Translations under genes and position numbers: made by a program
In this document: piece by piece, positions 14,213-62,521 of the stretch
Position numbering within the stretch: position 1 is the first letter of the stretch
How the letters are laid out: each line of letters starts with the position of its first letter
NCBI GenBank assembly: GCA_964016885.1
Contig: OZ024750.1
Span: 2,480,001-2,544,000 of the forward strand
Length of the DNA stretch: 64,000 bases
Source: Eledone cirrhosa
Taxonomy: Eukaryota
Direction: 5' to 3'
Notes under the pieces: generated by a model
The model's input: the letters and a program-made list of their open reading frames with translations, nothing else
Database searches by the model: none
Told to the model about the DNA's origin: nothing

Positions 14213-14410
14213 GGAAAAGAGTCAGGACCTCGACGGCTGAGCTCCGGCCATTTCAACAGCTAGAAATATACATTCTTTATTAAACATTGAAATGACTTCT
14301 ACAGGACTAGAACTGCTTCATTCATATGAAATCATCATGAAAATCATCCAAATGAAACAGTTCTAGTCCTGTAGAAGTCATTTCTATGTATAATAAAGAA
14401 TGTATATTTC
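14211..14410. mobile_element. Penelope-like terminal-repeat fragment with hammerhead motifs, head-to-head inverted repeat
   Basis: About 60-bp inverted repeat (14263-14323 / 14351-14410) containing GAAA-CAG..CTG-TA-GAAGTC. A minus-strand GAAA-TGGC-(cgGAGCTCa)-GCCG-TC lies at 14232-14254. Abuts (TA)n. Confidence 0.65.
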
Positions 14411-36209: not shown

Positions 36210-36379
36210 GTATACACACATATATATATAATATATATGTGTCTATATATTTATATAATATATATAGATATATACACACACACATATAAATATATATATA
36301 TACGTGTCTATATATTTATATAATATATATAGATATATACACACACACAGATATATGTATATATATATATATATATATG

Positions 36380-36445
<66 letters not shown>

Positions 36446-37192
36446 TATGTCCAGAATTAGCCGTCGAAACGGCTTGAGCTCAGCTGTCGGGGTCTTACTG
36501 GTTCCTATACATATATATATATATATATATACACATATATATATATATATATACACATACATATATATATATATATATACATATATACATACATATATAT
36601 ATATATATACATATATATATACATATATATACATATATACATATATATATACATATATATACATATATACATACATATATACATATATACGTATATATAT
36701 ATACATATATATTATTGTTGCTGTATACATATATATACATATATCTATACATATATACATATATACGTATATATATACATATATACATATATACGTATAT
36801 ATATACATATATATATACATATATATATACATATATATACACATATATATACATATATATATACACACACATATATATATATATACACATATATATATAT
36901 ACATATATACTTACATATATACATATATACATACATATATATATACATATATACATATATCTATACATATATACATATATATACATACACACACACATAT
37001 ATATATATATACATATACACATATATATATATACATATACATACACACACACACACATATATACATATACACACATATATATATATATACATATACATAT
37101 ACACATATATATATATATATACATATACATATACATATATATATATATATATATACATACACATATACATATATATATATATATACATACAC

Positions 37193-37233
<41 letters not shown>

Positions 37234-37428
37234 TATATACATATACATATATACATATATAGACATATATATACATATATATATATACATATATATACAC
37301 ATATATATATATACATATACATATATACATATATAGACATATATATACATATATATATACATATATATATATACATACATTTATATATATATACACACTT
37401 ATATATACATATACACACTTATATATAC

Positions 37429-37461
<33 letters not shown>

Positions 37462-37636
37462 CATACTTATATATACATATAAATATATATATATACATAT
37501 AAATATATATATAGACATATATATATACATAAAAATATATATATATACATATATATATACATATATATATACATATATATACATACATACATATATATAT
37601 ACATACATATACATATATATATACATACATATATAC

Positions 37637-37670
<34 letters not shown>

Positions 37671-37691
37671 GTATACATACATATATACATA

Positions 37692-37727
<36 letters not shown>

Positions 37728-37731
37728 CATA

Positions 37732-37795
<64 letters not shown>

Positions 37796-37910
37796 CATAT
37801 ATATACATATATATACATACATATATATACATATATATACATATATATACATACATATATATACATATATATATATACATATATATACATATATATATAT
37901 ACATATATAC

Positions 37911-37943
<33 letters not shown>

Positions 37944-38095
37944 CATATATATACATATATATATACATATATATATATATATACATATATATATACATAC
38001 ATATATATATATTTATCCTTATCGAGCCCTCTTTGGATTTTAGTCTTCAAATTTATTATTATTACTATAAATCTGAGAAATATTTATATTTAAAC

Positions 38096-38466: not shown

Positions 38467-38542
38467 AATGACTTCTACAGAAGAAGATCTGTTTTATTTG
38501 TATGAAATCATCAGGTAGATGTCTGTACTCTACTTCTACCAC
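38467..38542 (-). mobile_element. Penelope-like fragment with decayed hammerhead core
   Basis: Minus strand reads CTGATGA-tttcatacaaat-AAAA-CAG-atcttctt-CTG-TA-GAAGTC; same family as 14351 and 40354. Confidence 0.6.
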
Positions 38543-38717: not shown

Positions 38718-39392
38718 AATTTCTTTATTAGCCAGAAGGGCACAAAAGAAGGGGAAAAATACAAATGGGAGTTTACATACAGGTATATGAAAATAAAACT
38801 CTTAATAAAATAACAAATAACAATTGAAATCCCCAATAGGGGGGAGGTGTTACACAGGGGTTGTACACACCCTGAAAAAATGTACAACTCTCTTCTCCAG
38901 GAGCACCCAGAGTGCGTACTCCCTTCCTCTCTTTCCTCAACCTACAGGCTTATATAGAGAGAAGGCCCAACCACTCGGGCCATCTTTGCCACATTCACCC
39001 ACCTTTTATAGAATTTGCTGGGGTACAGCACCTCTCTCTCCATCCTGGGGTACAGCACCTCTCTCTCCATCCTGACTCTTCTTCCAAAATGATATTTGAA
39101 AAAACGAATCAGTTGTTCGCCGGAGAGAAAGATGTCTGACCTCAGCCCTTTTAACCTCGTCCACCATAACCATAACACATAGGAAAACCGCCTCTCCCTC
39201 ATTTTTGAAGGAGGGTGGCGGTTTGAACATGACAATGGACACGGTGGTCAACTGGATTGGTCCCACCCGCGACAATAGTCGTTCTACATAGCCCCACAGG
39301 TCGTTAACGCCCGGGCAGTGTACAAATGCGTGCGCAACGGTTTCTTCATCGTGCACGCATCTCGGACAGATCTTTTTCAAAGGGTCCCTACC
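38718..39392 (-). mobile_element. Young 5'-truncated Tx1-like LINE 3' end with CCHC zinc knuckle
   Basis: ORF 39006-39380 has CPRC..DEETVAHAFVHC...LW (zf-RVT-like). The 3'UTR has AATAAA on the minus strand near 38724-38729. A 27-bp tandem duplication lies at 39018-39071. Both flanks are (GACA/GATA)n. Confidence 0.85.
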
Positions 39393-39909: not shown

Positions 39910-40220
39910 CCCATATTTTCCCACACTGACATTTTGAAACGCAATGGAATCAAAATTGAAATGTCTGAACATTGATAGAAAGAAAAAAGAGAAGACAGAA
40001 GGATATTTTTATACCAATATTGAAGATATATACATATATATGTGAGTGTGTAAATACATATATATACAAACACACACATATATACATATATATACATACA
40101 CACATATATATATATACACATACATATATATCTACACAAACACACATATATATATATACACATTATATATATATATACACATTATATATATGTATATATA
40201 CATACATATACATATATATA

Positions 40221-40415
40221 AGTTTATCCCGGGTTTAATCGGGGGTAACCACAGTAAGTAAGGTACTCAATACAAAGCAGAATATAAATATTTAAAATAG
40301 AGAGGCCTCTACAGGTCCAGACTTTTTTCATTCGGGAGAAATCATCAGGCTTCCTGATGATTTCTCCCGAATGAAACAGTTCTAGTCCTGCAGAAGTCCC
40401 TCTATATTAAATATA
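40221..40415. mobile_element. Palindromic Penelope-like element with near-complete hammerhead core
   Basis: Perfect 24-bp inverted repeat (40326-40349 / 40353-40376) with longer imperfect arms. Plus strand reads ggcttc-CTGATGA-tttctcccgaat-GAAA-cag-ttctagtc-ctg-CA-gaagtc. Flanked by (TA)n. Confidence 0.7.
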
Positions 40416-49918: not shown

Positions 49919-51738
<1,820 letters not shown>

Positions 51739-52389
51739 ATGCTCACACATTAAACATATCTATATTTTATTAATTTTAAGACAGTTGTTCGATATCTCGG
51801 ACAGTTTGTGAGAAAATGTCTTTATTGCAACATTTCTACATCATTTAGATATTTGTGATTGGTGGAGGAGACAATTTTTATGGATATATTTGGTAAAGAT
51901 TTACTATAGTCTTAATTAACTGAATATTGTCAATCTCAGTAATAGAGGTTAATTTTACTTTGAATGTACTTGGACTTTTTTACTTGGAAGCAATTACAGA
52001 AATTATCTCATTGTAAACAGTGTAGAAAGAGTTGTCATTAAATGCTCTCAACCAGTTTGATATGTTTCTATCATATTGGTATCTTAAGTGTATCAGCAAT
52101 AGATAGAAAGATTTACCTAAAAAAATATAAATTCGAAGAATGTGCATCTAAATTATTGATGCCAAATGTATAACACATAAAAAAAAAAGCCAAAACAAAA
52201 ACCCTGGTTTCCTACAATGGCAATATTACTGATGCTGGTAGTAATGATAGGTTGGCAATGATAGACTCCATATTAGAATGTGATCCCTTTCGCAATCATG
52301 AGATCTTTAAATATATATCTGTTTTTATCTTTTGACTCCTCCACCACATCTTCATGCAATGCAGCCAATGCACCATCATATTGTCAGCC

Positions 52390-61873: not shown

Positions 61874-62521
61874 AATTATATATATATATGTGTGTGTGTA
61901 GTGGAACATCAGTTCATGAACTTAGTTCCTTCCAGAAGGTCATTTGTCATCCACAATGTTCATAAACCGAAACTATTTTCCCCATACGAAATGTTGAGAA
62001 AGAAATACAATGAGAGAGAGACTGTGTGTGAAATACAGATAGATATCACCATAGTAACTAACTACACAATGGCAAACCATTACAATAACACCGAATTGGT
62101 CAGCTACCCCCAAACCAAGTCTATCCTTTATTCTCTTGAGTTCACTGTAATCCTGTCACCTTATATAACCAATTTTGCAGTCAACACCTGATGAAATTGT
62201 CTGAGTCTTGCATCACAGTTGGATGATGAAACTGAGCCACTGAAATACGTATAGTGTTTTCACAAATTAAAAATTTAGAGAATGTTTCCCATTTGGCCTT
62301 CTGTTGTTTTTAAATAAGTCATCATCATCATCGTTTAACGTAATAACTTTTTTATTTTTTATTTTCTTTGTACTTTTCCTTTTGTGTTTTTCCTGATGAA
62401 GGGCAAATGCACAATACGTTGTCTATGTAACTCATTCTCCTTTCTCCAAGCGTGAAACTAATACACTTCATATTATTACATCCTTTTGTTTTTTCCTACC
62501 AAATTCCATTCACAAGGTATT

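What the first reader, a model, noticed from the sequence alone, without database searches (positions are those of the whole stretch)
40290..40412. Hammerhead family B: near-complete type I core sitting at the axis of a perfect palindrome
Seen: ggcttc-CTGATGA-(tttc tccc gaat)-GAAA-cag...ctg-CA-gaagtc. Stem I (ggcttc/gaagtc) and stem III (cag/ctg) pair. The triplet is GCA here, but sister copies at 14351-14379 (+), 14294-14340 (-) and 38470-38514 (-) have canonical GUA. Each copy has a different core lesion, so the consensus is intact. Stem II opens with an unusual U-U pair. The 24-bp perfect inverted repeat puts a CUGAUGA...GAAA core on both strands. Inference: a second ribozyme family in head-to-head Penelope-type terminal repeats.
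Basis: partly seen in the sequence, partly recalled or inferred. Interest (0 to 1): 0.75.

Follow-up and report, generated by a model that had tools for sequence, protein, structure and literature searches.

The report
Head-to-head Penelope stub with hammerhead
This mirror-image stretch is one worn copy among thousands of short stubs of a Penelope-type jumping gene; the family carries a well-conserved predicted self-cutting RNA at what is likely the very start of its transcript, and each stub is likely two short DNA copies of that RNA start joined head to head, so the locus itself is ordinary.

Summary
In detail: type I hammerhead motif on + (40348-40398), 24-bp perfect inverted repeat around CTT, GCA at the cut site. 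The element is larger than reported: 40220-40412, with a 70-bp one-sided tail, in (TA)n. GCA is sporadic (169 GCA against 9,426 GUA exact hits genome-wide). Stem I shows compensatory changes between subfamilies. Relatives continue upstream into CCAAT and TATA boxes and downstream into a reverse transcriptase plus GIY-YIG frame with Hydra-clade motifs. The U-U pair is common in published Hydra-clade hammerheads, and the minus-strand core cannot fold. So it is a new family of a known kind, and this copy is likely dead. The population is informative: 74 of 95 sampled arms start at the first six bases of stem I, about 30 nt behind TATA, often with an extra G; 76 of 79 head-to-head pairs have exactly one tail and none has two. 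I infer two cap run-off cDNAs from two internal start sites on uncut RNA. This scan reached the same reading before, in this and other genomes. Cleavage, transcription and the start site are untested.

The parts
40220..40412 (.). whole insertion: two arms head to head plus one-sided tail, between TA-rich microsatellites
   Evidence: shared boundaries in the best genomic copies; 82.7% over 127 nt to the 5' end of the ORF-bearing copy L208
40348..40412 (+). short arm, from the first base of stem I to the proximal 3' end
   Evidence: 3' ends cluster near +57 to +74
40220..40349 (-). long arm: begins at the base before the core, lacks the 5' strand of stem I, carries the tail
40348..40398 (+). type I hammerhead motif, decayed in this copy (GCA at the cut triplet; one stem I pair turned to G-U)
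40326..40376 (.). 24-bp perfect inverted repeat with 3-nt loop CTT; GG at 40348-40349 is shared by both arms (junction microhomology, inferred)
40380..40387 (+). loop III with a self-complementary CTAG; predicted dimer contact
   Evidence: self-duplex -12.8 against hairpin -1.4 kcal/mol
40220..40289 (-). 70-bp tail (5' untranslated leader of the parent element, inferred)
   Evidence: the same sequence runs on to the ATG of the ORF in sister subfamilies
40228..40243 (-). small hairpin just inside the tail end; candidate mark of the distal RT start
   Evidence: outer pair C-G in 41, T-A in 27, other in 9 of 77
14290..14383 (.). sister palindrome of a related subfamily, centre deleted, both cores broken, no tail
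38470..38515 (-). single decayed sister arm

Best explanation
The locus is a decayed head-to-head stub of a very abundant Penelope-like retrotransposon with Hydra-clade motifs, likely made from two short cDNAs of the RNA's 5' end, and its family carries a conserved type I hammerhead fold predicted to be the first 51 bases of the transcript. Shown: the anatomy of the parent (CCAAT, TATA, hammerhead, tail, ATG, RT, GIY-YIG), the pile-up of stub ends at stem I, the one-tail rule, stem I covariation. Inferred: a promoter in the terminal repeat starts RNA at stem I; the protein nicks both strands of a (TA)n target; each nick primes reverse transcription inside the 5' leader of uncut RNA, one at about +65 and one at about +137; both cDNAs run off the capped end (extra G) and are joined through 2-3 shared bases (CC on GG), giving the CTT loop. 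The ribozyme likely needs a dimer or protein help and would remove the cap 137 nt ahead of the start codon; it is not needed to make the stub.
For: Copy number: 9,426 exact GUA hits against 169 GCA; 636 exact 46-nt cores. Parent: L115 and L208 join promoter, hammerhead, tail and ORF; motifs RWR, DKT, YRDD, CxCx5C, YIG; weak Pfam GIY-YIG hit; these match the Hydra description. Covariation: 64 sequences, stem I pairs changed on both sides in 6, 13 and 1 sequences, 0 of 500 shuffles reach the cell count; loop II varies, core 94-100% constant. 5' ends: 74 of 95 arms at +1..+6, 4 at -9..-2, 17 run 29 or more nt upstream; TATA lies 35-38 nt before the core in 64 of 79 hits. Extra G: 11 of 16 non-native, non-arm junctions, against C in 15 of 15 native ones. 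Tail: 76 of 79 pairs have one, 0 two, 3 none; the arm that keeps stem I has the tail in 18 and lacks it in 22. Uncut template: 15 solo starts at the cut site against 22 at a control TA. In vitro precedent: both strands extended, two internal RT starts that define the tail, uncut RNA as substrate (PMC11167929).
Against: No RNA data: start site, cap and cleavage are inferred. No ORF-linked copy of the window's own GGCTTC subfamily was found (0 matches; only a short continuation in L071); the ORF links come from sister subfamilies. The covariation rests on about two lineage changes, and stems II and III show none. The hammerhead fold is 1.0 to 3.4 kcal/mol above the best fold, stem II pair probability is 0.10 or less, and stem I drops to 0.16-0.58 in the 137-nt leader. 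The sampling pattern forces 5' ends to be at +6 or earlier and favours intact copies. The Pfam hit is below the curated cut-off (20.1 against 22.6 bits). No tree with named Hydra references was built.
Confidence: 0.72

Rival explanations
1. Same parent element, but the palindrome arises by fold-back self-priming of one strand at the AGG-CTT-CCT hairpin, and the endonuclease then trims one arm at the AT-rich site near +65.
For: Self-priming was proposed for head-to-head palindromes (PMC3846280, passages) and endonuclease resolution for the tail (PMC8557442, passages). Arms agree in subfamily marker in 50 of 54 pairs, shuffled mean 17.4. The commonest junctions sit at this hairpin.
Against: Without trimming, the copied arm cannot be longer than the template arm, yet it holds the tail in 22 of 40 scored pairs; junctions vary widely, 2 pairs keep stem I on both arms, and 4 of 54 pairs differ in marker.
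Confidence: 0.17
2. A non-autonomous mini-element (SINE-, retrozyme- or MITE-like) whose master copy is already short or palindromic and is copied as a unit.
For: Fixed ends and high copy number; no ORF-linked copy of this exact subfamily; retrozymes are proposed as non-autonomous PLE derivatives (10.64898/2026.07.22.740005, part 1 of 5).
Against: Loop orientation flips against the tail and junctions differ; 17 of 95 copies run into the native promoter; units begin at stem I, not at the cut site; only 2 short tandem duplications were seen among the sampled loci, no arrays. A short non-autonomous linear master remains possible.
Confidence: 0.08
3. This copy is a functional, host-used ribozyme or hairpin RNA.
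For: The inner 24 bp are a perfect repeat while the outer arms have decayed.
Against: 12 differences from the family majority in 123 bp, including the cut triplet; stem I probability 0.0 in the palindromic transcript.
Confidence: 0.03

Closest known systems
Hydra clade of C-terminal EN+ Penelope-like elements (Craig et al. 2021, PMC8557442; section 11, passages, part 2 of the supplement)
   Same: RWK-like, DKT and CxCx5C motifs, C-terminal GIY-YIG, (TA)n targets, type I hammerhead; CUGAUGA-U...U-GAA in many Hydra magnipapillata rows; stem III acag/ctgt in four listed families; Penelope-13_HM has an inverted copy at its 5' end.
   Different: Hydra-1_Obim, the one octopus family listed, has a different hammerhead; a search of the supplement for this family's core gave 0 hits. 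Loop III is 8 nt here against 1-3 nt in the listed Hydra rows. The tail is about 70 nt against the 30-40 nt described.
PAc Poseidon element of Anolis carolinensis (Frangieh et al. 2024, PMC11167929; parts 1-2 of 4)
   Same: Two RT starts bracket the tail, both strands are extended, AT-rich target, uncut RNA is the substrate, stem-loop at the start site.
   Different: Different clade; in PAc the ORF begins inside the hammerhead, here the ATG is at about +182. The parts I read do not describe cap run-off or head-to-head joining.
Minimal hammerheads of metazoan PLEs (Cervera and De la Pena 2014, PMC4209133; parts 1-2 of 4)
   Same: Type I, in the terminal repeat, palindromic loop III, paired motifs on opposite strands ascribed to truncated PLEs.
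   Different: This family has a 4-bp stem III, a 3-bp stem II and U10.1-U11.1 in place of G-C.
Inverted pLTR insertions of Adineta vaga Penelope (Arkhipova et al. 2013, PMC3846280; passages)
   Same: Head-to-head repeats with palindromic junctions, optional tail on one arm, TATA and Inr-like motifs in the repeat.
   Different: Explained there by self-priming on an antisense template; the arm statistics here fit two cDNAs better.

Membership tests
Type I hammerhead ribozyme | Core CUGAnGA ... GAAA | tested here: met
   window + strand; 94-100% constant over 79 hits
Type I hammerhead ribozyme | UH at the cut site with A15.1-U16.1 pair | tested here: not met
   this copy has GCA; the family has GUA in 9,426 against 169 exact hits, so met for the family only
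Type I hammerhead ribozyme | Stem I pairing kept by compensatory change | tested here: met
   about two independent lineage changes
Type I hammerhead ribozyme | Stems II and III supported | tested here: inconclusive
   95-97% paired but no compensatory change; weak predicted stem II
Type I hammerhead ribozyme | Site-specific self-cleavage | not testable with these tools
   no genomic excess of ends at the cut site
Hydra-clade PLE | Single ORF, RT with C-terminal GIY-YIG | tested here: met
   L208 651 aa open from ATG, L213 C-terminus; sister subfamilies, not the window's own
Hydra-clade PLE | RWK, DKT and CxCx5C motifs; no CCHH | tested here: met
   RWR, DKT, CNCLNKEAC; the second Cys in the GIY-YIG core is not kept among copies
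Hydra-clade PLE | (TA)n insertion bias and canonical hammerhead | tested here: met
   flanks
Hydra-clade PLE | Placement in the clade by RT phylogeny | not tested
   1,273 unnamed homologs found; no named references available for a tree
EN+ PLE insertion structure | Inverted 5'-truncated copy and tail at one end | tested here: met
   76 of 79 pairs with one tail
EN+ PLE insertion structure | Direct terminal repeats around the ORF | tested here: inconclusive
   not seen in the visible part (8 loci, output cut); the 3' region runs into microsatellite like that found upstream of the promoter
Non-LTR retrozyme | Tandem units each with a hammerhead | tested here: not met
   copies are dispersed, inverted or solo
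MITE | Fixed palindromic master copied as a unit | tested here: not met
   variable junctions, tail on either arm

The most novel reading that the evidence does not exclude
The stubs record the Penelope insertion mechanism: the hammerhead is the capped first 51 nt of the mRNA, every insertion uses two fixed internal RT starts (one per target strand), both cDNAs run off the cap, and they are joined head to head. The ribozyme would then act as a dimer-dependent decapping switch on the element's own message rather than as a 3' processing tool.
Probability: 0.5. Interest if true: 0.6.

Novelty: new member of a known kind. Interest (0 to 1): 0.3.

Why it matters
The locus is neutral debris. The family matters as a large natural data set on an open question: how Penelope-like elements make their inverted ends and one-sided tails, and what their hammerheads do. 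The one-tail rule, the free choice of arm and the pile-up 30 nt behind TATA give exact positions to test in the existing in vitro system. The GUA form, with a full stem III and a self-complementary loop, is a good candidate for a monomer-versus-dimer assay.

Tried and rejected
Rfam: the whole-window scan showed only microsatellite-driven miRNA models in the 150 of 355 rows listed; the local scan listed no hammerhead. The repeat finder was swamped by TA arrays. A second ribozyme on the minus strand: rejected (3 of 6 stem I pairs). Footprint of cleavage: 15 starts at the cut site against 22 at a control site; partner arms starting at +44 to +46 (5 of 65) are equally explained by stem I microhomology. 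Two different RNA molecules per insertion: mostly not supported (50 of 54 concordant; 25 of 79 pairs left out for private changes). ORF-linked copy of the window's subfamily: none; one search found only microsatellite or unrelated flanks after the tail in 23 hits. Sequencing runs: no RNA holder listed; contigs of four runs of unrecorded kind did not span the locus and showed no intron joint; summed depths were not used. tblastn of the parent protein found nothing in the window. Literature: searches showed no paper on this family or on cap run-off in PLEs; the library lacks most subscription papers and Repbase/Dfam, where the family may already be deposited. Lunse et al. 2017 on dimeric PLE hammerheads is recalled only. 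PMC13282606, PMC6155905 and PMC3088659 were seen as passages.

Full report
Observation. A 24-bp perfect inverted repeat closes a CTT loop at 40350-40352, and the 123 bp match their own reverse complement at 81% (z -12.8). The minus strand has the two core boxes but only 3 of 6 stem I pairs, so there is one candidate ribozyme, not two. The three sister arms are real, have GTA, and are each broken in more than one place. Rfam does not list a hammerhead here.

It is a repeat. The genome (3.0 Gb; likely an octopus by composition and repeat content, not tested) gave 1,564 first-look candidates. A 28-nt stretch across the cut site occurs exactly 9,426 times with GTA and 169 times with GCA; the reversed control occurs 0 times. 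The window copy differs from the majority of 17 equal-length top hits at 12 of 123 places. In most of the 25 best copies a 70-bp tail extends one arm, and both ends lie in (TA)n; in the window the tail is 40220-40289.

The parent. Copies that are not inverted continue upstream for 400 bp or more through CCAAT, CACCC and TATAAATA motifs (motif names recalled). In L115 and in most of 30 further loci the tail continues into an ATG and a reading frame. L208 reads 651 aa open with RWR, DKT, YRDD, CxCx5C and YIG; L213 gives a weak Pfam GIY-YIG hit below the cut-off. These are the diagnostic motifs of the Hydra clade (PMC8557442 section 11). The links come from sister subfamilies; for the window's own subfamily I found none. 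L208 matches the window stub at 82.7% over 127 nt.

Is the ribozyme real at family level? Of 79 TATA-linked hits I aligned 64, dropping 15 that were non-native junctions, duplicates or had indels. Stem I occurs as GGCTTC/GAAGCC, AGCTTC/GAAGCT and AGATTC/GAATCT; changes on both sides touch three pairs (6, 13 and 1 sequences), and 0 of 500 shuffles reach the cell count. That is about two lineage events, not 20. Loop II varies, the core does not; stems II and III show no compensatory change. The U-U opening of stem II appears in many Hydra-clade rows of the published supplement and was reported as the best-tolerated mismatch there (PMC3088659 passages). Predicted folding is marginal: the active fold is 1.0-3.4 kcal/mol above the best one, loop III prefers a dimer (-12.8 against -1.4 kcal/mol), and in a transcript through the palindrome stem I has probability 0.0.

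How the stub is made. From the first 100 of 636 exact cores I took 98 loci and scored 95 rows (3 duplicates dropped; one more duplicate pair, L246/L247, is counted twice). 74 arms start at +1 to +6 of stem I, 4 at -9 to -2, and 17 run 29 or more nt into the promoter; the pattern hides starts later than +6. TATA lies 29-32 nt before +1 in 64 of 79 hits. The base before stem I is C in 15 of 15 native copies, but G in 11 of 16 other junctions and in 15 of 19 arm-to-arm joints, where it is ambiguous. Contigs of public runs also break at 40348-40349 and often hold the extra G. 3' ends fall in two groups, near +57 to +74 and +133 to +140. Among 79 head-to-head pairs (two are repeats of one locus) 76 have one tail, none two, three none; the arm that keeps the whole stem I has the tail in 18 and lacks it in 22. 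Arms share their subfamily marker in 50 of 54 scored pairs (shuffled mean 17.4). Solo copies start at the cut site no more often than at a control TA, 15 against 22. A hairpin next to the tail end keeps its outer pair across subfamilies, C-G 41 and T-A 27 of 77.

Reading. I infer that transcription starts at stem I; that the protein nicks both strands of (TA)n and primes at two fixed sites in the 5' leader of uncut RNA; that both cDNAs run off the cap; and that their 3' ends anneal by CC on GG. This joins the in vitro results for the Anolis element (both strands extended, two internal starts equal to the tail, uncut RNA used; PMC11167929) to the known head-to-head insertions (PMC8557442; PMC3846280). 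Fold-back with later trimming is the main rival: arm concordance fits it, the tail on the copied arm does not unless trimming is added. Cleavage after +45 would remove the cap ahead of the ATG at about +182, so a regulatory role is more likely than 3' processing; this is inference.

Novelty. Hammerheads in PLE ends, opposite-strand pairs and one-sided tails are published. This family's core was not in the one supplement searched, and my searches showed no paper on cap run-off in PLEs, but Repbase, Dfam and subscription journals were out of reach. I had noted the start-site and two-cDNA reading before looking up earlier notes by words; those notes report the same in this and other genomes and are not independent support. 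Two gave leads that I tested: the terminal hairpin (supported for the tail end) and A-to-I editing (weak: 5 T-to-C among 12 changes in this copy, p about 0.03). Verdict: new member of a known kind; interest 0.3.

Noticed in passing
window 40290-40412: 5 of the 12 differences from the family majority are T-to-C on +, including the GCA lesion; this would fit A-to-I editing of a minus-strand hairpin transcript, p about 0.03 against 17 other copies. Weak.
   Followed up: partly
window 62183-62235 and 62388-62465 (+): Two further CTGATGA...GAAAC hammerhead-like motifs unrelated to this family; no match to the parent protein nearby.
   Followed up: no
window 8167: CTGATGA inside another repeat-like stretch.
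   Followed up: no
window 39006-39392 (-): Open frame resembling the zinc-binding end of a LINE reverse transcriptase (resemblance recalled).
   Followed up: no
window 36280-38016 and 49926-51770: Very long TA-rich degenerate arrays, 76% alike on the same strand and on opposite strands.
   Followed up: no
L115:2050-2110 and sister loci: TAAC followed by a pyrimidine run and TAG right after the tail end looks like a 3' splice site ahead of the ATG; no spliced contig seen.
   Followed up: partly
L026/L178, L179, L103: Palindromes whose two arms carry different subfamily markers, so two templates can be used in one insertion.
   Followed up: partly
L102, L142, L143, L145, L147, L212: Other Penelope-like families, some Hydra-type (42% to the L208 protein), nest in the same (TA)n tracts; one has a CTGAAGA hammerhead-like motif.
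   Followed up: partly
L141:2924 (+), L140:2517-3570 (+): A 640-aa open LINE-type RT frame and Tc1/mariner-like frames (labels recalled).
   Followed up: no
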